This document shows positions 1 to 7,396 of a stretch of 7,396 nt of DNA, piece by piece. The translations under genes were made by a program, and so were the position numbers. Every line of letters begins with the position of its first letter. Within the stretch, counting starts at the first letter, position 1. The stretch spans positions 1 through 7,396 of IMG/VR virus record IMGVR_UViG_3300029310_000108; one strand, 5' to 3'. The notes beneath the pieces were generated by a model. It made no database searches, was not told the DNA's origin, and saw only the letters and a program-made list of their open reading frames with translations. Source of the stretch: a virus. Its lineage: Duplodnaviria > Heunggongvirae > Uroviricota > Caudoviricetes.

Positions 1-1446
1 GATAAATTAAGAGCTTTCGCAAATGAGAGAGCGAGAATTGTTCTTGGAGAACAGATAAGAGAAAAGTCAAAAGGTCGCAATCATGATTTATCGGTTATGG
101 AGTATAAGGTGTTAAAAGAGGAAATTCGTTACGACGAATTGAAGGAACAGGCTGATGAAAAGCAACAGGAGAATGAGCAGTTGGAGCGTGAAAAGAAACA
201 GCTTGTGCATGAGTATGATACTTTATACATGCGAGTAGCGGTTAAACAGCTGGATTATGAGGAAGCTGATGAACGAGTAAAAGAGGCAAATGGGCGAAAT
301 GCCGTGCGGCGATTGCAGAACAGGCCAAAGAAGAAGTTAAGGAAGTGGCAGATGGCGACTAAGAGCAATATTTATAAAGATCCGCGCTGGCTGTCGCTGG
401 TGGAGAAATATAAAGACAATTGGGTACTGGCAGCAAAAGAATTGTTTGATATTGATTTAAGCCACCAGCAACAACAAATTGTTGAAGCTATACAGCCCAA
501 TAATGCAAAAGCTACTGTCACCACTCCGTATGGGATCGGACGACCGCAAGTGCTTGCTGTTATTAGTACCCTTTATACGATTATGTATCCTGATTCCCGG
601 ACAGTAATTGTTTATCCAAAATCAAATGTTTGCAAAAGAGGAATTGTTGCATATGTGTGGCAATGTTGGGAGGCATTGCTGAAAAAACAACCTTTTATCA
701 TTGAGTATTTTAAGGTCGGTGATAGCGGTCTGATGTTCAATGAATTTTGGGGAATGTGCTTTTGTAACTACCGCCTTAACTATGAAGATAGCATTGCAGG
801 TCACTACGCCGACCATCTTTTATTCATTATTGTGGATTCCGCACATATCAGCGATCGGGCATACAGCATTGTGTGGGCAAGCATGACTAGTGGTGATTCA
901 CGCATATTGCTCACTTCAATTCCGTCACCAGAGGAAATAGGCTTTTTTTATGATTCACATCATGGACGTGCTTTAGCTGAAGATAATCCGAGTGGTGTAT
1001 ATAAAGCCATTAAGCTGAGTGCGGAGGATTCACCATTTATTACCCAAGAATATCTTGATCATTTTGCCGAAAGGTATGGCGGGCGAAATAGTGATGACTA
1101 TCGTCGTATGATTCTTGGTGAGTTCCCTGGTATTAGGGAGGCTGTTCTTGAATCAGATATGCCGAAGACAATGCGCTTTTCGATGCCTGATGGTAGTGAA
1201 TGGACAATGCCATTACGAGTGATAGCCCGGCATCATGCGCAGCACCACGCCAAAAAACATGGCGTCACGACATTAGAATGGTTGAAATCGCACACTATTC
1301 CACTCTTCACTGCAGATCACAATGCTATCGTTGAGTGGGCAAAAACAATTCCGTGGGAGCATGTCGCTGAATATGCTCACATGCTAAAACCGCCGAAAGA
1401 CAGGCACGAAATTAGCTGGCTGACAGCCGAAAAAATCATTGAATGA
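1..1446 (+). CDS. 5'-partial ORF: N-terminal coiled-coil segment followed by an ASCE-type ATPase-like core with terminase-large-subunit-like motif order; no nuclease domain; product uncertain
   Basis: Frame 1 is open from base 1: there is no stop before the first ATG at 97 and no Shine-Dalgarno in front of that ATG, so the gene probably starts upstream of the window. Stop TGA at 1444-1446. Motifs read from the translation: Q-rich LSHQQQQIVEAI, Walker-B-like LLFIIVDSAH, motif-III-like ILLTSIPSP, then RRMILGEFPG. The expected Walker A position (TTPYGIGRPQV) lacks GK[ST]. Family assignment is from remembered motif patterns only. Confidence 0.55.
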   Translation, partial: DKLRAFANERARIVLGEQIREKSKGRNHDLSVMEYKVLKEEIRYDELKEQADEKQQENEQLEREKKQLVHEYDTLYMRVAVKQLDYEEADERVKEANGRNAVRRLQNRPKKKLRKWQMATKSNIYKDPRWLSLVEKYKDNWVLAAKELFDIDLSHQQQQIVEAIQPNNAKATVTTPYGIGRPQVLAVISTLYTIMYPDSRTVIVYPKSNVCKRGIVAYVWQCWEALLKKQPFIIEYFKVGDSGLMFNEFWGMCFCNYRLNYEDSIAGHYADHLLFIIVDSAHISDRAYSIVWASMTSGDSRILLTSIPSPEEIGFFYDSHHGRALAEDNPSGVYKAIKLSAEDSPFITQEYLDHFAERYGGRNSDDYRRMILGEFPGIREAVLESDMPKTMRFSMPDGSEWTMPLRVIARHHAQHHAKKHGVTTLEWLKSHTIPLFTADHNAIVEWAKTIPWEHVAEYAHMLKPPKDRHEISWLTAEKIIE

Positions 1447-1453
1447 TATCAAC

Positions 1454-1486
1454 AAAAAGCCCGCCAGGTCTGGCGGGCTTCTTTAT
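1454..1486. terminator. Bidirectional rho-independent terminator between convergent genes
   Basis: GC-rich inverted repeat GCCCGCCAG / CTGGCGGGC (about 1459-1478) flanked by AAAAA on the left and CTTCTTTAT on the right. On the minus strand it reads as stem-loop followed by TTTTTGTTG. It sits between the stop of the plus ORF (1446) and the stop of the minus-strand humD-like gene (1492). Confidence 0.65.
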
Positions 1487-1491
1487 GCGCC

Positions 1492-1881
1492 TTAAATCAC
1501 AGGTCTATAATCAAACTCCCCACTTCGGGCATCATTAATGACATGAGTGATCACACCAAACACAGCATTACTGCCCGTGCATCCATCGTCATCTACTGGT
1601 AACGCCTCTTTCTTCCCGGTGCTTAAATCCTCCAGGTGCTGGCGCGGATACTTCCTGTATCTCTTTATGCGATATTCACCCTCCATAGCGCATATAAGCA
1701 GTGAACCATCAACCGGAGTAAGTGAGGAATCAACCACCAGCAAAGCACCTTGCAATATTCCCTCACGGTGATGGCTGTCTGCCGCCCGCATGAAGTAGGT
1801 CGCGGAAGGATGTCTGATTAGTTGCTGATCAAGAGAAATGCGGCTCTCTGCATAATCCGCCGCAGGAGAAGGGAAGCCCAT
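1492..1881 (-). CDS. humD: UmuD'-like S24 (LexA/UmuD family) protein, HumD-like; begins at the residue equivalent to the post-cleavage N-terminus of UmuD'
   Basis: 129-aa ORF with ATG at 1881 and GAGG 9 nt upstream. The translation [30 protein letters not shown]... closely follows E. coli UmuD from its Cys24/Gly25 cleavage site ([29 protein letters not shown]). The Ser (ADSHH) and Lys (EYRIKRYRK) at the UmuD active-site positions are present, and the C-terminal VFGVITHVI matches UmuD VFGVVIHVV. Recalled from memory, not searched. Confidence 0.85.
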   Translation of the reverse strand: [129 protein letters not shown]

Positions 1882-1899
1882 AGCGTTTTACCTCAATGA

Positions 1900-1919
1900 T
1901 ACTGTTTATTCATACAGTA
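1900..1919. promoter_or_regulatory. LexA (SOS) box, CTGT-N8-ACAG
   Basis: Plus strand tACTGTttattcatACAGta: CTGT at 1902-1905, 8-bp AT-rich spacer, ACAG at 1914-1917. This matches the E. coli LexA consensus TACTGT(AT)4ACAGTA. It lies 19-38 bp upstream of the humD-like start codon and overlaps the putative -10. Confidence 0.8.
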
Positions 1920-1945
1920 TACATTGAAAAGGCATAGTTTGTGAA
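1916..1945 (-). promoter_or_regulatory. Putative sigma70 promoter of the humD-like gene (-35 TTCACA, 18-bp spacer, -10 TATACT), with the -10 overlapped by the LexA box
   Basis: On the minus strand: TTCACA (plus 1940-1945), 18 bp, TATACT (plus 1916-1921). The -10 hexamer shares bases with the first half-site of the LexA box. Predicted by eye only. Confidence 0.45.
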
Positions 1946-2004
1946 AGCGGGGTTTGTAGGCGCGCCACGCTGGGGGCTAATCACATTTCTCCCCCATCTT
2001 GCCG

Positions 2005-2256
2005 TTATTTTTTTGGTGCATCCTCGTTCTGATACACCGGATCGCTCCCTTTTGGCAACTGGAGGCTTAACTTCCGGTAGTGCCGTAGCCGTTCCATGAA
2101 ATAGGCGCGCAGGTTTTCCGGTTGCTCACGGGCCACCTGCTCTGCAATCACAGGTATATTCAGCCGTTCTTTGTAAGCAACGCCGCTGGCGGCAAGGTCT
2201 ACGTTCACCTTGTCTCGCTCTTCCTGGCTTTTAGCTGCTATATTTCGATCTGACAC
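2005..2256 (-). CDS. hot: Homologue of DNA polymerase III theta subunit (HolE-like; phage P1 Hot-like)
   Basis: 83-aa ORF with a GTG start at 2256 preceded by AGGAGG and a 6-nt spacer. The translation ...[47 protein letters not shown]... matches E. coli theta (...[46 protein letters not shown]...) nearly residue for residue in the core. Recalled from memory. Confidence 0.85.
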
Positions 2257-2288
2257 AAGAAACCTCCTAGAGTTAGTGGATCAGGCAC

Positions 2289-2645
2289 ATGCACAATAAC
2301 GTTCTCAATGTTAGCCGTTCAATTCAGACAATCAGAGACTGCACCAGTGTGGTGGCATCAATCCCATTGCGAAATAGCATAGACGAACTGCAAATTCGTG
2401 TATTGAACCTGAATCATGCCAATGCAATTAAGCAATTGCGCTTTATTTTGACGCTTAAAAGTGAAGCAGAGGGGGTAAAGCACAGCGTAAAAGTGTTTTC
2501 TGAGGCCATCCTGCTTAATGGGAGGCTTCGGCATCTGGTGAGGCCAGAACGTCAATATCATGACGTCCTGGCTTGTGAAAAAGACCTTCTTTCTGAAGTT
2601 CAGGATAGGGTGATCGATTTCGTTAAATCTCATCCCCTGCATTGA
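2289..2645 (+). CDS. Possible antisense-oriented hypothetical protein (118 aa) in the gap between two minus-strand genes; coding status uncertain
   Basis: Only protein-like ORF in the roughly 370-bp space between the minus-strand genes at 2630-2914 and 2005-2256. The translation has helix-like periodicity and no low-complexity runs, whereas the overlapping minus-strand ORF 2358-2642 looks like a shadow ORF. Against it: weak ribosome-binding site (CAGGCAC before ATG), several AGG/AGA/ATA codons, only 32 bp to the divergent hot start, and a 16-bp convergent overlap with the neighbouring gene. Confidence 0.3.
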   Translation: MHNNVLNVSRSIQTIRDCTSVVASIPLRNSIDELQIRVLNLNHANAIKQLRFILTLKSEAEGVKHSVKVFSEAILLNGRLRHLVRPERQYHDVLACEKDLLSEVQDRVIDFVKSHPLH

Positions 2646-2914
2646 GGGCAGGTGTTACCTTCCGCAAAGTAGGGAAAGCTGCTATCAAGTTCATCGCACC
2701 ATCTGCGATGGTCGTAGCACCAAAAAGTCTCCCACGACAAACAAAAAGACTTCATCCACCGGGACACTCGGTCGGGTATATCTGCTGGTGGTCGCTCCTC
2801 TGGCAATAATTTACCTGATAATTCCCTTTCCGCCCGCGCCAGCATTCCTTTGAGGCTGGCATTCTCTTTTTCAAGAATCTCTACGCGCGCCTGTAACTCA
2901 GCTTTCGTTGGCAT
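2630..2914 (-). CDS. Hypothetical small protein (94 aa): N-terminal coiled-coil-like segment and a Cys/Trp-rich C-terminal tail ending in CPQC
   Basis: Minus-strand ORF; start chosen at ATG 2912-2914 (MPTKAELQARVEILEKEN...) because GAGG lies 6 nt upstream. Upstream in-frame ATGs at 2926 and 2986 lack a Shine-Dalgarno. Overlaps the stop of the upstream gene (2898) by 17 nt. Five Cys in the tail (C-x7-C-x6-C-x15-C-x2-C). Confidence 0.45.
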   Translation of the reverse strand: MPTKAELQARVEILEKENASLKGMLARAERELSGKLLPEERPPADIPDRVSRWMKSFCLSWETFWCYDHRRWCDELDSSFPYFAEGNTCPQCRG

Positions 2915-3662
2915 GGTCCGCCTCATGTTTATCAGCCACCAGCGGCAATAAAGCCTTCGCCATTTCATGAACCAACATGGCATCAATGACGCCTAGCGTA
3001 TGGCCCGGCTTAATCTTTAATGCGGCCTCAAGATAGCCTCTTTCCAGAGTGGTTTTTACGCTTTTCCTGGGCGCTTGTTGGGAACTATCCGGAAAATCCG
3101 GATGGTTGCCAGCCTCATAAGCTACCCGCAACCAGTGCATGAATGTTTCCGCAGACACACAACCGCAGTCCACATCGATTTTCCCGCGCTGCTGCTCCAG
3201 CCATTGCTCAAAATCTAACTTGTAAGCCTTACTTTCAAGTTCATCACCATTGAACTCGACTTGCTGCGACGCTATGAGAGCGGCTTCGTATTGTTCGTGA
3301 GTGACAACTGACTGGTATTCATCGCTATCAAGGTCATGAATTGGAAGCTCAATCTCAAAACAAAAATTGCGCCCATCGAACTGGTCTTTTTTGCAGTCTG
3401 AGCCAAAAGCAAAAGTCGCGCATGGCACCATTAAATTGGCACTGAGCAGGCGACAATCGATCATACCATAAGGCCATCCGCCGCGCTTAGGCAACTCCTT
3501 CACTAACAAGTCGATCAGCTTCATTGTTTTACCATCTTTGCAAGTCGCCAAAGCCATTTGGGCAAGCTCCAATACCTCATCTGCCGTGTATCCAGCGCCG
3601 TGTCCATACATTTCGATGCGTGCAATAATCTCTGATATGCGAAATTTAGTGATTTTAGTCAT
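2898..3662 (-). CDS. Hypothetical protein (254 aa; 260 aa if the in-frame ATG at 3680 is used), Cys-containing, no family recognised
   Basis: Longest ORF in the array. ATG 3660-3662 overlaps the TGA stop of the upstream small gene as ATGA (MTKITKFRISEII...). An alternative in-frame ATG at 3678-3680 has AAGG 6 nt upstream. Stop TGA at 2898-2900. Seven Cys including VDCGC. Confidence 0.7.
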   Translation of the reverse strand: MTKITKFRISEIIARIEMYGHGAGYTADEVLELAQMALATCKDGKTMKLIDLLVKELPKRGGWPYGMIDCRLLSANLMVPCATFAFGSDCKKDQFDGRNFCFEIELPIHDLDSDEYQSVVTHEQYEAALIASQQVEFNGDELESKAYKLDFEQWLEQQRGKIDVDCGCVSAETFMHWLRVAYEAGNHPDFPDSSQQAPRKSVKTTLERGYLEAALKIKPGHTLGVIDAMLVHEMAKALLPLVADKHEADHANES

Positions 3663-3868
3663 AGTTTTATTTCCTTGCATGGTTCGCCTTTACGGCATAC
3701 GGCTACACGGTCATTTCTTACATTAACCACTGTCACCGTTCCGTCATCACATTGAATAACGATGAAAGGGTGTTCATTCTCTTTTGTGCAATGTTGCTGT
3801 TCTCCAGCCATTGCAGCCGGAGGATCAAATAGCGCCAGAACAAATGCCAACCTTAAAAAATGCTTCAT
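3659..3868 (-). CDS. Small secreted protein (69 aa) with predicted Sec signal peptide and four Cys in the roughly 47-aa mature part
   Basis: ATG at 3866-3868 with AAGG 4 nt upstream. N-terminus MKHFLRLAFVLALFDPPAAMA has a basic n-region, a hydrophobic core and an AxA-type cleavage site. Mature region GEQQHCTKENEHPFIVIQCDDGTVTVVNVRNDRVAVCRKGEPCKEIKL. Stop overlaps the next gene's start (ATGA). Confidence 0.6.
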   Translation of the reverse strand: MKHFLRLAFVLALFDPPAAMAGEQQHCTKENEHPFIVIQCDDGTVTVVNVRNDRVAVCRKGEPCKEIKL

Positions 3869-3875
3869 TTGGCCT

Positions 3876-3928
3876 TATCCGTTATCAAAATTGGAATATC
3901 CGTTATCACGAGCGTGATATCCGTTATG
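3876..3928. repeat. Three direct repeats of (A/T)TATCCGTTAT(C/G) at 21-bp phasing, with a 6-2-6 inverted repeat between copies 2 and 3; putative operator or iteron-like protein-binding array
   Basis: TATCCGTTATC at 3876-3886 and 3897-3907, TATCCGTTATG at 3918-3928. Inverted repeat ATCACG-AG-CGTGAT at 3905-3918. The array begins 8 bp upstream of the start codon of the gene at 3659-3868. Confidence 0.65.
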
Positions 3929-4081
3929 AAGTGGGGAATAAGACCACTTACCAATACCCTCCGCCTGACTCAAAGTTGGCGATAAGCCAGGCTGCGAAAA
4001 GAGTAACCCCTGCTCCAAAAACTCGACCGCATCAAAATCAAATACGGCTTAGCGGAATAGCACCAGCAGACCCACGCACTG

Positions 4082-4091
4082 NNNNNNNNNN
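4082..4091. other. Assembly gap (run of 10 N)
   Basis: Literal nnnnnnnnnn in the sequence; true length and content unknown. It lies in a roughly 320-bp non-coding interval between two minus-strand genes. Confidence 0.97.
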
Positions 4092-4192
4092 ACACCCCAC
4101 CGTACCCCATTTAACACCACCAGCTAATAAAATAAATAAACCGCAAAGGCATACAAACAAAAAAGTAATCCAAAATTTCTTTCTGTTTTTCA

Positions 4193-4486
4193 TTATGGTT
4201 GACTCCAGTTATCTTCAATAACAATACTTAACCTCTGAAGCCATTCTGCTAATTTCAGCATGGCTTCTCTTTCGCTTAAACCACGCGGAAAATCATCAAG
4301 CGAAATTGTTGGCTTGAAGTTCCCCGAATTATCCATTTCAACGGTCAGATTTTGCTCCAGCACGGTATTCCTTACGCGGCTATTGTGCCGAAGCAAATAT
4401 ACTGAGCGTGATTTATTGGTTTTGTGGTCGAGCTGATATTCGGTAAGTATCATCTGGCTTCCACCATGATTATTACCGCGCCACAT
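4193..4486 (-). CDS. Hypothetical protein (97 aa), no family recognised
   Basis: ATG at 4484-4486 preceded by GGAG and a 5-nt spacer; stop TAA at 4193-4195. Follows the upstream gene's stop by 12 nt. Translation MWRGNNHGGSQMILTEYQLDHK... Confidence 0.55.
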   Translation of the reverse strand: MWRGNNHGGSQMILTEYQLDHKTNKSRSVYLLRHNSRVRNTVLEQNLTVEMDNSGNFKPTISLDDFPRGLSEREAMLKLAEWLQRLSIVIEDNWSQP

Positions 4487-4498
4487 AATTACTCCGTG

Positions 4499-4927
4499 TT
4501 AATAAGAGAAATAGACCGTTGCAACACTGTTATATTGGTCGAACGAAATAGCATTTACTTCATAGCTGGTGGGCAGCTTCTTACCAAGAATGTAGCCAGG
4601 CCATGAGTTCCACGGAATTTCTGTTCGGTCGTCGTCTTGCCACATTACGCAACCAAGAGAGCCAACCATTTCACCATATCGCTTGCCACAAGTAACAAAG
4701 CCTATATTCGGTTTTGATTGTGTGACTGATACCGTGGTGGTGTTTGCGGAAGCATTGGTTGCAGCACGCCGCGCTTGCTCGCTGGCGATAGAAGCATTTA
4801 CTGCCGCCGTGGTCGCCGCTGTTGCCGCCGCTGTTGCCGCCGCTCCAGCGGCAATAACTGACGCGTGGGATAAATGACTGGCTGATAACATAGCCAGAAA
4901 AATAATAGCTCTTTGAAATTTAGCCAT
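4499..4927 (-). CDS. Secreted protein (142 aa): signal peptide, Ala/Thr-rich low-complexity linker, and a roughly 70-aa C-terminal domain with two Cys
   Basis: ATG at 4925-4927 with AAGGTG upstream. N-terminus MAKFQRAIIFLAMLSASHLSHA is signal-peptide-like. The linker AAGAAATAAATAATTAA is encoded by a GCN-rich 12-bp tandem repeat. C-terminal domain ...GFVTCGKRYGEMVGSLGCVMWQDDD... Confidence 0.7.
   Translation of the reverse strand: MAKFQRAIIFLAMLSASHLSHASVIAAGAAATAAATAATTAAVNASIASEQARRAATNASANTTTVSVTQSKPNIGFVTCGKRYGEMVGSLGCVMWQDDDRTEIPWNSWPGYILGKKLPTSYEVNAISFDQYNSVATVYFSY
4803..4845. repeat. About 3.5 tandem copies of a 12-bp unit (GCCGCTGTTGCC) inside the secreted-protein gene
   Basis: Plus strand gccgccgtggtc (4803-4814), gccgctgttgcc (4815-4826), gccgctgttgcc (4827-4838), gccgctc (4839-4845). 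It encodes the Ala/Thr-rich linker on the minus strand. Confidence 0.85.
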
Positions 4928-5201
4928 TGATATTCACCTTTATCGCGTACACCTTTACCGGTTTATCACCGAAGTGCGGATGTGTGATTGTCTTGATTTC
5001 ATATCCGTTATACGGGACGTCTATTCTGCGACTGGAATCGTCGCGCTTCGGATATCCCTTTGTGATAATCAGGCGGTCATATTCCCGGAACATGATTCGC
5101 TTATTCCAGTAGCCATTACACAAGCGATACTCTTCCGTTTTCTCTCCGCGAATCATGGCATCGAAGTATTCACCTTTGACGGCAAGTTGCAGGTTAGCCA
5201 C
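4920..5201 (-). CDS. ASCH-domain-like (PUA-like fold, DUF3850-type) small protein
   Basis: 93-aa ORF with a GTG start at 5199-5201 preceded by AGGAGG and a 6-nt spacer. Translation MANLQLAVKGEYFDAMIRGEKTEEYRLCNGYWNKRIMFREYDRLIITKGY... follows the remembered ASCH/DUF3850 pattern (..L.V.PEYF.A...G.KT.E.R.ND..F..GD.L.L.E..). Start overlaps the upstream stop and the stop overlaps the next start, both as TGGCTAA. Confidence 0.7.
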   Translation of the reverse strand: MANLQLAVKGEYFDAMIRGEKTEEYRLCNGYWNKRIMFREYDRLIITKGYPKRDDSSRRIDVPYNGYEIKTITHPHFGDKPVKVYAIKVNING

Positions 5202-5742
5202 GGTTAACCTCCTGCGGCGGCTCTGGTAGTGGCATCCAGTACAAGGCGTTCCCTAACCACGATAAAGTGCCGTCGCTCAACTCCACGTATTCCCCTTGTA
5301 CCTGTCCTGCCATATACTCGCCGTGCTTTGAATAAATTAAAATCCAATCATCTTGAGGGGGCATTCGCTCACTACAGCTTATCCAACCATCCGGAGTTAC
5401 CGGATAGTTGCCATTCACAAGGTCAGCTCGAACATATAGCGTGTCATCATGGTGCTGATTGTGGCTGCACCACGTTAATTCGCTTAACTCGCCATCTTCT
5501 GGCCATACTCCAGCCGTTTGCAGCCAGATATGGGCTGGCGCATCTTGGCAAGGTGTATTAACTGGCAACTTGTAAGTTTGGCTTACAGGTTCTGCACTAT
5601 CAGCTTCGCGCCGCTTCTGTAGCTCTGCTGCCATCGCTCTCACGACTTCAACTGGTGCCCTTGCAGCAAACTCTATGTTGGTGATCAGCTCATTAAGATA
5701 TTGCTCGCTGGGATACTGTTTCTTATTGGTAATAGTGGTCAT
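5194..5742 (-). CDS. Phage-type protein with DUF551-like C-terminal domain (182 aa)
   Basis: ATG at 5740-5742 preceded by AAAGGAGAGTGAT, coupled to the upstream stop as TGAtATG. The C-terminal region WISCSERMPPQDDWILIY...YWMPLPEPP matches the remembered DUF551 hallmark (W...HWMPLP.PP) seen in lambdoid prophage proteins. Confidence 0.75.
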   Translation of the reverse strand: MTTITNKKQYPSEQYLNELITNIEFAARAPVEVVRAMAAELQKRREADSAEPVSQTYKLPVNTPCQDAPAHIWLQTAGVWPEDGELSELTWCSHNQHHDDTLYVRADLVNGNYPVTPDGWISCSERMPPQDDWILIYSKHGEYMAGQVQGEYVELSDGTLSWLGNALYWMPLPEPPQEVNRG

Positions 5743-5743
5743 A

Positions 5744-6166
5744 TCACTCTCCTTTCCCCTTAAGCATGGCAGCACGGCAGGCATTCCAGCCTCTCACCTC
5801 TGCAATAGCGGCAACAGCATCAACCGCGTACATGCTAAGAGGGTTAGGCATTGGTTTTTCTTCCGGCACTACAGGCACTGGCGGTGCGGTATAAAACTTC
5901 GTCCCCAGCGGCAACAACTTCATCGCTTTTTCTCCCTTAATGATGCGATAAGTTGATTTCTCACCAAGATATACCGTTCCATCCATAACAAGGCCATGTC
6001 GCTGCTCTGAAACTTCACCAATAGCCTCTGCTTCCAGCGATGCCAGCGCGATACGAAACACATTGGCAAGCAGGCTGTCTGAAGATTGGTTATCGTGCGC
6101 CGGGTCGCTCAGGAAGCCTGTGATGAATGATTTAATCTCCGCACGTTCTTTGGTAATAGTGGTCAT
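5744..6166 (-). CDS. Hypothetical protein (140 aa) sharing its first five or six codons (MTTIT) with the downstream DUF551-like gene
   Basis: ATG at 6164-6166 with AAGGA 7 nt upstream; stop TGA at 5744-5746, 1 nt before the next ATG. The first 17 nt of coding sequence are identical to the next gene. Confidence 0.65.
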   Translation of the reverse strand: MTTITKERAEIKSFITGFLSDPAHDNQSSDSLLANVFRIALASLEAEAIGEVSEQRHGLVMDGTVYLGEKSTYRIIKGEKAMKLLPLGTKFYTAPPVPVVPEEKPMPNPLSMYAVDAVAAIAEVRGWNACRAAMLKGKGE

Positions 6167-6176
6167 GTGTTAGTCC

Positions 6177-6932
6177 TTAAACTGCCAGTTGCAATTGCAT
6201 TTCAAAGCGGTCGCGTTGTTCACAATACGCAAGAGAACCAGGGCTATTGTGTGCCTCAATCCGTTCTACCATTAATGCTGCGCGTGTCTCTTTACTTGCA
6301 GGTGCATAAGCCCCAGACCAGGCTTTATCAATACCGATGTTTCGAGCGACGTTCGTACTATCTGCGCTGGCTAAGGGTAATTTTGTGAATATCAGCGGAT
6401 TTAACATGCGCAACCCATGTAGTTTCGTAACCGGCTGACCATACTCATCAACAATGTGACGAATCAGGTCTTTCATTCTGGCTACCGCAAGAGTTGGGCG
6501 CTTTACGTCATAGTCGCCACAACTACCGATAGCCACTCGCGGAAACTCATTGCACAAATGAATAAATCGCTCGTCACTTTCATTCATGTGCCACACTGGA
6601 ACGCCAGCTAGTTTTCCGTGAGGCCACTCATTCAGAAGCGCATCATTTTCCTCCTCTCCGCCATCAATAACATCCGGGATAATGGCAAAATCGAATCCTG
6701 GGTGATTCTTCCAGCGAGCAACAAACTCGTAGTAATCGCTCCAGTCGATTTTGTTTTTGCCAGCTGCTTTCCAGGCGGTGAATGCACCGTTGTCCAGCGC
6801 GAACGACTGACAGTATTCAGCCGCGAGATTGATCTGGCCTGAATGCGCAAAACTGATAAACGCATGTCGCCCTTTCCATGCTCTCATTGCGCACGTATCA
6901 GGAGTAATAGGCCCACCGTGGTAGTGAATCAT
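6177..6932 (-). CDS. tRNA-guanine-transglycosylase-fold protein, minimal TIM-barrel core (DpdA-like candidate DNA 7-deazaguanine transglycosylase)
   Basis: 251-aa ORF; ATG at 6930-6932 preceded by AAGGAG and a 6-nt spacer, coupled to the upstream stop (TGAgATG). Motif correspondences with E. coli Tgt: SFAHSG ~ GNTFHL; ALDNGAFTAW ~ LTDSGGFQVF; RVAIGSCGD ~ YAVGGLAVGE; ASADSTNVARNIG ~ DMFDCVMPTRNARNG. It lacks the C-terminal CxCxxC...H zinc subdomain and the N-terminal roughly 50 aa of tRNA-TGTs. Recalled from memory, not searched. Confidence 0.7.
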   Translation of the reverse strand: MIHYHGGPITPDTCAMRAWKGRHAFISFAHSGQINLAAEYCQSFALDNGAFTAWKAAGKNKIDWSDYYEFVARWKNHPGFDFAIIPDVIDGGEEENDALLNEWPHGKLAGVPVWHMNESDERFIHLCNEFPRVAIGSCGDYDVKRPTLAVARMKDLIRHIVDEYGQPVTKLHGLRMLNPLIFTKLPLASADSTNVARNIGIDKAWSGAYAPASKETRAALMVERIEAHNSPGSLAYCEQRDRFEMQLQLAV

Positions 6933-6933
6933 C

Positions 6934-7396
6934 TCACTCTCCTTTGATGCGAATGCCAGCGGCGCGTGGCACATTAACTTCCACGATGCGCACTGTTGGT
7001 TTGTACATCTCAATCGCTGTCAGCCAGTCAGCTCCTGTCATGCGCTTTTCCGCATCGCCATTAGTCCACTGAACCGGTACACCAATAGCCTTCATCGCGA
7101 TTTCTATTTCCCCGGCAATGGCGCTTTTTCCGCAACCAGTAAAACCAGATACAACGACCAGAACTTCACCTTTGGCTGGTTTTATTCCCCGCGCTTCCAG
7201 TTCTGCTATGCGCTTACTTCCATCCGAGATAACACCTTCGTAATACTCACGCTGCTCGTTGAGTTTTGATTTTGCTGTTTCAAGCTCAACACGCAGTTTC
7301 CCTACTGTTAGCGCAATATCCTCGTTCTCCTGGTCGCGGCGTTTGATGTATTGCTGGTTTCTTTCCCGTTCATCCAGCAGTTCCAGCACAATCGAT
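6934..7396 (-). CDS. 5'-partial ORF (start beyond the right window edge): coiled-coil region followed by a Walker A motif (GFTGCGKS) close to the C-terminus; function unknown
   Basis: Reading frame is open to the window edge: the codons at 7390-7395 are in frame with no stop, and the GTG at 7387-7389 is only the first in-frame start inside the window. Stop TGA at 6934-6936. Translation ...RVELETAKSKLNEQREYYEG...GEVLVVVSGFTGCGKSAIAGEIEIAMK... Only about 50 aa follow the P-loop. Confidence 0.65.
   Translation of the reverse strand, partial: SIVLELLDERERNQQYIKRRDQENEDIALTVGKLRVELETAKSKLNEQREYYEGVISDGSKRIAELEARGIKPAKGEVLVVVSGFTGCGKSAIAGEIEIAMKAIGVPVQWTNGDAEKRMTGADWLTAIEMYKPTVRIVEVNVPRAAGIRIKGE

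What the first reader, a model, noticed from the sequence alone, without database searches (positions are those of the whole stretch)
1492..2256. P1-like hot / LexA box / humD module: SOS-controlled, pre-activated UmuD' next to a Pol III theta homologue
Seen: the 83-aa protein is nearly colinear with E. coli theta (HolE). A near-consensus LexA box (CTGT-N8-ACAG, 1900-1919) overlaps the putative -10 of the downstream gene. That gene encodes a UmuD homologue whose first residues ([10 protein letters not shown]) correspond exactly to the N-terminus RecA-mediated cleavage produces in UmuD', so the product would not need processing. Established: phage P1 carries hot, a LexA-regulated region and humD in this order. 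Inference: the element supplies a damage-inducible mutagenesis or replication accessory function. Differences from P1: no phd/doc follows, and the module is convergent with a terminase-like gene. No umuC-like partner is in the window, so it would rely on the host.
Basis: partly seen in the sequence, partly recalled or inferred. Interest (0 to 1): 0.6.

Follow-up and report, generated by a model that had tools for sequence, protein, structure and literature searches.

The report
P1-type hot and LexA-controlled humD
This stretch carries the well-known phage P1 pair of genes hot (a copy of a small DNA-polymerase III subunit) and humD (a ready-made UmuD' mutagenesis factor behind a LexA/SOS switch), in a compact layout already present in phage RCS47 and about two hundred sequenced E. 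coli/Salmonella phage-plasmids, so it is real but ordinary.

Summary
On the minus strand the window has hot (2005-2256, 83 aa), a 123-bp spacer and humD (1492-1881, 129 aa). Hot passes the Pfam theta model (E 5.6e-33) and is 90% identical to P1 HOT. HumD passes NCBIfam's HumD equivalog model (209 bits, cut-off 120) and is 95% identical to P1 HumD. Its Gly2 aligns with Gly25 of E. coli UmuD, the first residue of UmuD'. The 20-mer at 1900-1919 matches the LexA consensus at 17 of 20 positions, is unique in the window, and overlaps the -10 of the only consensus-type minus-strand promoter between 1400 and 7396. In ten related loci the half-sites are invariant although five different spacers occur.

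The junction without lxr is 98.6% identical in phage RCS47 and occurs in 194 PLSDB plasmids. The layout lacking phd/doc occurs in 14 D6-like plasmids. The exact HumD protein is on 698 public contigs.

- P1 has lxr between the two genes; here it is absent.
- The P1 late promoter of hot is absent.
- The "449-aa terminase-like ORF" is really a 364-aa gene with weak terminase-ATPase resemblance. It is extended in frame by a 291-nt fragment of a Lachnospiraceae mob gene, so the left end of the contig is probably chimeric.

LexA binding and HumD/Hot activity are inferred from P1 work, not tested here.

The parts
2005..2256 (-). hot: 83-aa homologue of the theta subunit (HolE) of DNA polymerase III, with a GTG start
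   Evidence: Pfam PF06440 E 5.6e-33. NCBIfam NF008207 104.9 bits against a cut-off of 97. P1 HOT structures 1se7/2ido E 1.4e-44 and E. coli theta 1du2 E 1e-19. 90% identical to P1 Hot and 99% to RCS47 Hot.
2263..2268 (-). Ribosome-binding site of hot (AGGAGG, 6 nt before the GTG)
   Evidence: Read directly from the sequence.
1882..2004 (-). 123-bp hot-humD spacer. It has no lxr gene, no ORF of note and no terminator-like fold
   Evidence: Short chance ORFs, the longest 52 aa and mostly antisense to hot. Fold z-score +0.41. Identical in length to the RCS47 spacer and aligned with it without a difference; P1 carries lxr here.
1940..1945 (-). Candidate -35 hexamer of the humD promoter (TTCACA)
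   Evidence: Promoter scan, 10 of 12 matches with an 18-nt spacer. Partly conserved in relatives, which have TTGCAC or TGCAC.
1916..1921 (-). Candidate -10 hexamer of the humD promoter (TATACT), overlapping the LexA box by 4 nt
   Evidence: Promoter scan. TATACT is present in 8 of 9 aligned relatives; P1 has TGTACT.
1900..1919 (.). LexA operator (SOS box): TACTGTATGAATAAACAGTA on the gene strand, 18 nt before the humD ATG
   Evidence: 17 of 20 to the consensus, unique in the window, 0 of 200 shuffles. The homologous site is annotated as a LexA protein_bind feature in P1 and P7. Half-sites are invariant across 10 loci that carry 5 spacer variants.
1890..1894 (-). Ribosome-binding site of humD (GAGGT, 8-9 nt before the ATG)
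   Evidence: Read directly from the sequence. Conserved in most relatives.
1492..1881 (-). humD: 129-aa UmuD'-like protein. It begins at the equivalent of UmuD Gly25 and keeps the Ser/Lys pair (Ser36, Lys73)
   Evidence: NCBIfam NF051876 HumD equivalog, 209.4 bits against a cut-off of 120, covering 1-129 of 129. UmuD' 1umu E 5.8e-23. 95% identical to P1 HumD; S36 and K73 are invariant columns aligned with UmuD S60 and K97. The exact sequence is on 698 public contigs.
1454..1483 (.). Hairpin between the convergent stop codons, followed on the humD strand by UUUUUGUUG. Probably a bidirectional intrinsic terminator
   Evidence: Minus strand dG -24.7 kcal/mol, z -4.5, 0 of 200 shuffles as stable. 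Plus strand -19.3 kcal/mol, z -3.0. The consensus terminator scan did not list it.

Best explanation
This is the hot-humD accessory region of a P1/D6-type phage-plasmid, in the compact variant that lacks lxr.

Shown by sequence: hot encodes a theta-like protein and humD encodes a UmuD'-sized protein without the N-terminal arm or cleavage site. A near-consensus LexA operator sits over the -10 and the predicted start site of the only promoter-like site in front of humD. A strong hairpin with a U-run follows humD.

Inferred mechanism:
1. In an undamaged lysogen the host LexA dimer occupies 1900-1919. It occludes the humD promoter and probably also blocks read-through from hot, because no terminator separates the two genes.
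2. After DNA damage, RecA-stimulated LexA self-cleavage frees the promoter.
3. HumD is then made directly in the active UmuD' form, so the slow RecA-dependent UmuD-to-UmuD' step is skipped.
4. HumD dimerises and joins host UmuC, since the element carries no umuC of its own, to give a Pol V-like translesion polymerase.

Hot is not under the box. It is probably transcribed with the long leftward gene block upstream. As shown for P1 Hot, it would bind the epsilon proofreading subunit of host Pol III and stabilise it.
For: Protein family membership.

Near-identity to the experimentally studied P1 proteins: HumD 95%, Hot 90%.

P1 and P7 records: the P1 and P7 records annotate the homologous LexA site, and the P1 record notes that HumD 'functionally complements E. 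coli UmuD''.

Box statistics.

Box conservation: TACTGT/ACAGTA is invariant in 10 loci and always lies 16-19 nt before the humD ATG. The 8-bp spacer takes five forms and the upstream flank diverges completely in Cyrano, CMS-2020a and PhiR41_1.

Promoter: the -10 overlaps the box. No other minus-strand promoter-like site occurs in 2200-7396.

Transcript ends: no terminator lies between hot and humD, and there is a terminator after humD.

[quoted passage not shown] P1 hot can substitute for theta (PMID 16077097). The epsilon186-HOT structures exist. PMC2528190 states that HOT may stabilise epsilon.
Against: Nothing was measured for this element: LexA binding, SOS induction, the HumD-UmuC interaction and the Hot-epsilon interaction are all carried over from P1.

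The promoter call is a consensus match, and the scan as a whole is not above chance (2 found, 1.4 expected).

The P1 record places its predicted PhumD about 470 nt upstream, inside lxr. That sequence does not exist here, so promoter assignment in this region is uncertain even for P1.

The promoter for hot was not found. The P1 late promoter LPhot is not conserved.

In a CRISPRi screen of P1, hot, lxr and humD were all non-essential for lytic growth (PMC10695390). The benefit to the element is therefore unknown.
Confidence: 0.88

Rival explanations
1. hot and humD form one transcription unit driven from far upstream. The LexA box works mainly as a roadblock or internal gate rather than as the operator of a dedicated humD promoter.
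For: No terminator-like structure lies in the 123-bp spacer. No minus-strand promoter-like site occurs in 2200-7396, so hot itself must be read from upstream. The humD promoter call rests on a scan that is not above chance.
Against: A 10-of-12 promoter match has its -10 fused to the box. TATACT is kept in 8 of 9 relatives, including three whose upstream DNA, and upstream gene, are unrelated and lack hot. In those relatives humD must have its own promoter. The two mechanisms are not mutually exclusive.
Confidence: 0.25
2. The box is a relic of the control of lxr, the divergent LexA-regulated gene of P1. It now serves no purpose, or drives only a plus-strand transcript antisense to hot.
For: In P1 the site is annotated as lying in the regulatory region of both lxr and humD. 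lxr has been lost here. A 52-aa plus-strand ORF (1941-2099) exists.
Against: The half-sites are perfectly conserved at a fixed distance from the humD ATG in all ten loci, whether or not lxr is present. No plus-strand promoter-like site lies near the box. The plus-strand ORF lies antisense to hot and matches no family that was examined.
Confidence: 0.05
3. The 129-aa protein acts as an S24 self-cleaving peptidase or a LexA-like regulator, not as a UmuD'-type polymerase accessory factor.
For: It has a Peptidase_S24 domain and keeps the catalytic Ser and Lys. Older annotations call it 'S24 family peptidase'.
Against: It has no DNA-binding domain and no Cys/Ala-Gly cleavage site, because the protein starts at the residue after the site. 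The LexA model scores 25.8 bits against a cut-off of 111, whereas the HumD equivalog scores 209 against 120. It is 95% identical to the P1 protein shown to work as UmuD' (PMID 10559166, cited).
Confidence: 0.03

Closest known systems
Escherichia phage RCS47 (Punavirus RCS47, NC_042128) hot-humD region
   Same: The gene order and orientation are the same, and the 123-bp spacer carries the identical LexA box and promoter-like hexamers. Identity is 96.4% over 860 nt and 98.6% over the junction. Hot is 99% and HumD 95% identical. The same divergent hypothetical gene lies upstream of hot.
   Different: In RCS47 humD is followed by phd-doc, as in P1. Here it is followed by a terminator and a convergent 364-aa gene.
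D6-like plasmid prophages of E. coli, e.g. pTB423 (NZ_CP034790), pMTY1586 and p23AR1183B
   Same: The whole context matches: cre, dut, DUF2829 gene, the 364-aa gene converging on humD, then hot and the leftward ASCH/DUF551/Ead-Ea22 block. The 364-aa-gene/humD junction is 100% identical in pTB423.
   Different: Only 58-63% of the window is covered, because the leftward accessory genes are mosaic. The type phage D6 itself has a deletion that truncates hot, and it has phd-doc.
Bacteriophage P1 hot-lxr-humD-phd-doc region (NC_005856)
   Same: hot, the LexA site and humD are homologous, in the same order and on the same strand. The proteins are 90% and 95% identical. There is no umuC partner.
   Different: P1 has lxr (191 aa, opposite strand) between hot and the box. 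It has the late promoter LPhot upstream of hot and phd-doc downstream of humD. None of these is present here.
E. coli umuDC operon and holE
   Same: The LexA-box logic is the same. HumD is 45% identical to UmuD from Gly25 onward. Hot aligns with theta at E 1e-19; the P1 record gives 61% identity between P1 Hot and theta.
   Different: UmuD is made as a 139-aa precursor that needs RecA-mediated cleavage and is co-transcribed with umuC. HumD is born processed and has no umuC. HumD also has a C-terminal extension of about 10 residues.

Membership tests
DNA polymerase III theta / HOT family (Pfam PF06440, NCBIfam NF008207) | Scores above the curated family thresholds | tested here: met
   Pfam 113 bits against 34.6. 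NCBIfam 104.9 bits against 97.
DNA polymerase III theta / HOT family (Pfam PF06440, NCBIfam NF008207) | Full-length, gap-free alignment with P1 HOT and with the core of E. coli theta | tested here: met
   Residues 1-83 align to 1-83 of 1se7. Residues 4-68 align to 3-67 of 1du2. 75/83 identical to P1 Hot.
DNA polymerase III theta / HOT family (Pfam PF06440, NCBIfam NF008207) | Binds and stabilises the epsilon (DnaQ) exonuclease domain | not testable with these tools
   Known for P1 HOT (structure 2ido; PMC2528190). Inferred here from 90% identity.
HumD family (NCBIfam NF051876, equivalog) | Scores above the equivalog cut-off over the full length | tested here: met
   209.4 bits against 120, covering 1-129 of 129.
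HumD family (NCBIfam NF051876, equivalog) | Starts at the equivalent of UmuD Gly25, so it has no N-terminal arm and no Cys-Gly cleavage site | tested here: met
   Query residue 2 aligns to residue 25 of 8gmt_B and to residue 1 of 1umu_A; see also the alignment.
HumD family (NCBIfam NF051876, equivalog) | Not in an operon with a umuC homologue | tested here: met
   Pfam, PHROGs and NCBIfam scans of ORFs across the window gave no match to a DNA-polymerase family. The gene downstream is convergent and lies behind a terminator. This covers only the 7.4-kb window; related whole plasmids list no such gene nearby.
HumD family (NCBIfam NF051876, equivalog) | Forms a dimer, binds UmuC and RecA filaments, and supports SOS mutagenesis | not testable with these tools
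   Reported for P1 HumD (PMID 10559166; the title was seen and the details are from my own knowledge of the paper). Inferred here from 95% identity.
LexA operator (gamma-proteobacterial SOS box) | Palindrome CTGT-N8-ACAG close to TACTGTATATATATACAGTA | tested here: met
   17 of 20 positions match, with all three mismatches in the central spacer. 0 of 200 shuffles produce such a site.
LexA operator (gamma-proteobacterial SOS box) | Placed over or next to the promoter of the regulated gene | tested here: inconclusive
   It overlaps a 10-of-12 consensus promoter by 4 nt and covers the predicted start site. The promoter is predicted only.
LexA operator (gamma-proteobacterial SOS box) | Half-sites conserved among relatives while the spacer and flanks vary | tested here: met
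   Ten loci with five spacer variants have invariant half-sites at a fixed distance from the humD ATG.
LexA operator (gamma-proteobacterial SOS box) | LexA binding and SOS-dependent expression | not testable with these tools
   Needs an EMSA or a reporter assay. The P1 and P7 records annotate the homologous site as LexA-binding.
P1 hot-lxr-humD-phd-doc arrangement | lxr gene between hot and the LexA box | tested here: not met
   The spacer is 123 bp with no lxr-like ORF.
P1 hot-lxr-humD-phd-doc arrangement | phd-doc addiction module directly downstream of humD | tested here: not met
   Downstream lie a terminator and a convergent 364-aa gene, as in pTB423.
P1 hot-lxr-humD-phd-doc arrangement | Lpa-dependent late promoter LPhot (AAGTTACTT at -22) upstream of hot | tested here: not met
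   The upstream region is not homologous to P1. The 9-mer is absent from the window even with one mismatch allowed.
Compact RCS47/D6-like hot-humD arrangement | hot, a 123-bp spacer with the LexA box, then humD, all on one strand | tested here: met
   98.6% identical junction in RCS47 and 98.1% in vB_EcoM-813R1. 194 PLSDB plasmids cover at least 80% of the junction, one of them at 100%.

The most novel reading that the evidence does not exclude
In the variant without lxr, hot and humD may form a single leftward transcript. The LexA operator would then act both as the operator of an internal promoter and as a roadblock, giving constitutive Hot and strictly SOS-gated HumD. The two products might act together on the host Pol III core. 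Hot would stabilise epsilon, while the UmuD'-like HumD, whose E. coli counterpart is reported to contact the alpha, epsilon and beta subunits, would promote the polymerase switch. That would make the pair one functional unit for replicating a damaged phage-plasmid rather than two unrelated accessory genes.
Probability: 0.1. Interest if true: 0.35.

Novelty: already known. Interest (0 to 1): 0.08.

Why it matters
It matters little beyond correct annotation. The module shows that a common group of E. coli and Salmonella phage-plasmids carries an SOS-inducible, already processed UmuD' together with a theta homologue. Under DNA-damaging antibiotics this could raise mutagenesis or damage tolerance in hosts that carry these plasmids, many of which also carry resistance genes. 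That idea dates from the P1 work of 1999-2007 and is already reflected in RefSeq product names. The practically useful outcome is the warning that the left 291 nt of this contig come from an unrelated Firmicutes mobilisation gene. ORFs that cross that junction should not be interpreted.

Tried and rejected
1. I looked for an lxr remnant in the spacer. There are only short chance ORFs, the longest 52 aa and mostly antisense to hot, and P1 Lxr has no counterpart.

2. I looked for the P1 late promoter of hot. The upstream region is not homologous, and the -22 palindrome AAGTTACTT is absent even with one mismatch allowed.

3. I searched for the P1 C1 operator consensus, taken from memory, with up to 3 mismatches. 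There was no match.

4. I looked for a terminator between hot and humD. The fold is no better than shuffled sequence.

5. An Rfam scan of the whole window found nothing at gathering score.

6. I tested whether the convergent 364-aa gene is related to the MinD/Mrp-like gene that occupies the same position in phages Cyrano and PhiR41_1. There is no similarity.

7. I tried to read the primary P1 papers (PMC94175, PMC523184, PMC2072811). They are not held, so what they show is cited from the GenBank notes and reference lists seen here, and from my own knowledge where I say so.

8. I did not compute a Lewis-type heterology index for the box, because I had no reliable copy of the frequency table. 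Mismatch counts and conservation were used instead.

Full report
**Observation**

Both genes lie on the minus strand.

hot runs from 2256 down to 2005. It has a GTG start, AGGAGG six bases upstream, and encodes 83 aa.
- It passes Pfam DNA_pol3_theta at E 5.6e-33, 113 bits against a cut-off of 34.6.
- It passes NCBIfam's theta model, 104.9 bits against 97.
- Against solved structures it aligns end to end with P1 HOT (1se7/2ido, E 1.4e-44). Residues 4-68 align without gaps to residues 3-67 of E. coli theta (E 1e-19).
- It is 75/83 identical to P1 Hot and 82/83 identical to RCS47 Hot.

humD runs from 1881 down to 1492. It has an ATG start, GAGG nine bases upstream, and encodes 129 aa.
- It matches Peptidase_S24.
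- It matches NCBIfam NF051876, 'HumD family translesion DNA polymerase', an equivalog model. The score is 209.4 bits against a cut-off of 120, over the full length.
- Residue 2 (Gly) aligns with residue 1 of crystallised UmuD' and with Gly25 of full-length UmuD.
- The Ser/Lys pair of the S24 fold is retained: Ser36 and Lys73 align with UmuD Ser60 and Lys97.

**The LexA box**

TACTGTTTATTCATACAGTA at 1900-1919 is the only CTGT-N8-ACAG in the window, where 0.10 are expected by chance. It is also the only site within three mismatches of the 20-bp consensus, and none of 200 shuffles produces one. All three mismatches fall in the central spacer.

A sigma-70-like site on the gene strand overlaps the box by four bases: TTCACA, 18 nt, TATACT, at 1945-1916. 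That scan alone is not above chance. However, it is the only minus-strand hit between 1400 and 7396.

Comparison with relatives is more telling. I compared ten loci: RCS47, D6, P1, P7, Cyrano, CMS-2020a, PhiR41_1 and three plasmids.
- The only LexA-type site in each lies 16-19 nt before the humD ATG.
- The half-sites TACTGT and ACAGTA never vary.
- The 8-bp spacer takes five different forms.
- The DNA further upstream is unrelated in Cyrano, CMS-2020a and PhiR41_1.

This is the pattern expected of a working operator. The P1 and P7 records annotate the homologous site as LexA-binding.

**Surroundings**

The 123-bp spacer between hot and humD holds no ORF of note and no terminator-like fold (z +0.41). 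Transcripts of hot could therefore run into humD unless bound LexA stops them.

Eight bases past the humD stop codon a 13-pair hairpin with a 4-nt loop is followed by UUUUUGUUG. Its dG is -24.7 kcal/mol with z -4.5. It also folds on the other strand, so it probably terminates both convergent genes.

Upstream of hot, only 32 bp separate it from a divergent 118-aa ORF (2289-2645). That ORF is annotated in RCS47 and D6. Its substitutions against those phages fall mostly on third codon positions, 12 of 19-20, so it is probably a real gene.

I found no promoter for hot. The P1 late promoter LPhot is not conserved. Hot is most simply read from the long leftward block of accessory genes.

**What it is**

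The window is a piece of a P1/D6-type phage-plasmid.
- The nearest phage is RCS47, at 96.4% over hot-humD.
- The nearest overall contexts are D6-like E. coli plasmids such as pTB423, pMTY1586 and p23AR1183B. Their order is cre, dut, a DUF2829 gene, a 364-aa gene converging on humD, then hot and a mosaic leftward block.

P1 differs in three ways. It has lxr (191 aa, opposite strand) between hot and the box, phd-doc after humD, and LPhot before hot. Homology with P1 runs from humD through the box to about 1934 and resumes in hot.

Neither difference makes this element unusual.
- The compact junction is 98.6% identical in RCS47 and 98.1% in vB_EcoM-813R1.
- At least 80% of that junction is covered in 194 PLSDB plasmids, one of them at 100% identity.
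- The junction between the 364-aa gene and humD is in 14 plasmids, one identical.
- The exact HumD protein is on 698 public contigs and the exact Hot protein on 3.
- A survey of P1-like phage-plasmids already lists pmgT...hot-lxr-humD as one of eight highly variable regions (PMC9603915).

**Mechanism**

Shown here: the family membership of both proteins, the processed-form N-terminus of HumD, the operator sequence with its position and conservation, and the terminator.

Inferred from P1 and E. coli knowledge:
1. LexA represses humD by sitting on its -10 and start site.
2. DNA damage removes LexA, and HumD is made already active.
3. HumD dimerises and uses host UmuC to form a Pol V-like enzyme (P1 HumD: PMID 10559166, cited; P1 record note).
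4. Hot binds and stabilises the epsilon proofreading subunit (PMC2528190; structure 2ido).

In P1 all three genes (hot, lxr, humD) are dispensable for lytic growth (PMC10695390). The benefit is presumably to the lysogen or plasmid state under stress.

**Rivals**

A read-through/roadblock model, in which humD has no dedicated promoter, is not excluded. It is made less likely by relatives that keep TATACT plus the box although hot is not upstream of humD in them.

The idea that the box is a relic of lxr control is contradicted by its perfect conservation at a fixed distance from humD whether or not lxr is present.

A LexA-like regulator role for the 129-aa protein fails on domain content and on model scores.

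**Side findings**

The first 291 nt of the window are nearly identical to an internal part of a 400-aa Mob_Pre 'plasmid recombination protein' gene (codons 191-288). That gene is found in Lachnospiraceae, Roseburia and Eubacterium. The join to the phage-plasmid DNA falls at a 4-5-nt microhomology and happens to be in frame.

This inflates the real 364-aa gene (352-1446) to an apparent 449-aa ORF that is in fact open to the window edge. Together with a run of ten N at 4082-4091, it suggests a scaffolded and partly chimeric metagenome contig.

The 364-aa protein belongs to phrog_5902, of unknown function. It has a weak hit to terminase large subunit (E 2e-8). Its N-terminal half, in a low-confidence model (pLDDT 57), resembles terminase ATPase domains (Foldseek E 2e-5, TM 0.36-0.50). 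'Terminase-like' is therefore defensible only at the level of the ATPase fold. The plasmids carry their real terminase elsewhere.

**Verdict**

The module is already known, annotated and widespread, so interest is low.

Noticed in passing
window 1-294: The left end is not phage-plasmid DNA. It differs at about 3 of 291 nt from an internal part (codons 191-288) of a 400-aa Mob_Pre (PF01076) plasmid recombination gene of Lachnospiraceae, Roseburia and Eubacterium. The join to D6-like E. coli DNA at about 291/292 falls at a 4-5-nt microhomology and is in frame, so it creates an artificial long ORF. GC content is 39% here against 43-52% elsewhere. This is probably a chimeric assembly.
   Followed up: yes
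window 4082-4091: There is a run of ten N, which is a scaffold gap. ORF calls across it show X residues.
   Followed up: partly
window 352-1446 (+): This 364-aa gene converges on humD. It belongs to phrog_5902 (unknown function) and has no Pfam or NCBIfam hit. It has a weak terminase-large-subunit hit (phrog_2, E 2e-8). Its modelled N-terminal half resembles TerL ATPase domains (P74-26, T4 gp17; Foldseek E about 2e-5; model pLDDT only 57). By eye the Walker A-like stretch reads TPYGIGRP, without the usual GK[ST]. It looks like an orphan, possibly degenerate, terminase-like ATPase in D6-like plasmids, which encode their real terminase elsewhere.
   Followed up: partly
window 2289-2645 (+): This 118-aa ORF is divergent from hot, with only 32 bp between the two start codons. 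It belongs to phrog_2594 and is annotated in RCS47 and D6 but not by PGAP in pTB423. Substitutions against RCS47 and D6 favour codon position 3 (12 of 19-20), so it is probably a real gene. It interrupts the otherwise uniformly leftward gene block and leaves the hot promoter unlocated.
   Followed up: partly
window 6177-7013 (-): This 278-aa ORF matches phrog_887, 'queuine tRNA-ribosyltransferase' (E 1.8e-103), but no Pfam family. The overlapping segment 5360-6966 matches an Stx1a-converting phage at 98.8% identity. It may be a DpdA-like 7-deazaguanine DNA-modification enzyme; that reading is from my own knowledge and was not tested.
   Followed up: no
window 2200-7396: Sigma-70-like sites are depleted in the leftward accessory block: 2 found against 8.0 +/- 3.3 expected, and none on the coding (minus) strand. 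This fits one long transcription unit that enters from beyond the right edge of the window.
   Followed up: no
L007 14-1114 and L010 14-1114 (phages Cyrano and PhiR41_1): In these phages of about 108 kb, humD with its LexA box converges on a MinD/Mrp-like ATPase gene of 366 aa. That gene is unrelated to the 364-aa gene of this window, and hot is not upstream of humD in these phages. humD plus its box therefore travels as a unit independently of its neighbours.
   Followed up: partly
L003 5394-5540 (phage D6): The D6 'theta subunit' CDS is a 48-aa truncated remnant. A deletion removes the 3' part of hot and part of the spacer, and the annotated CDS runs over the LexA box.
   Followed up: partly
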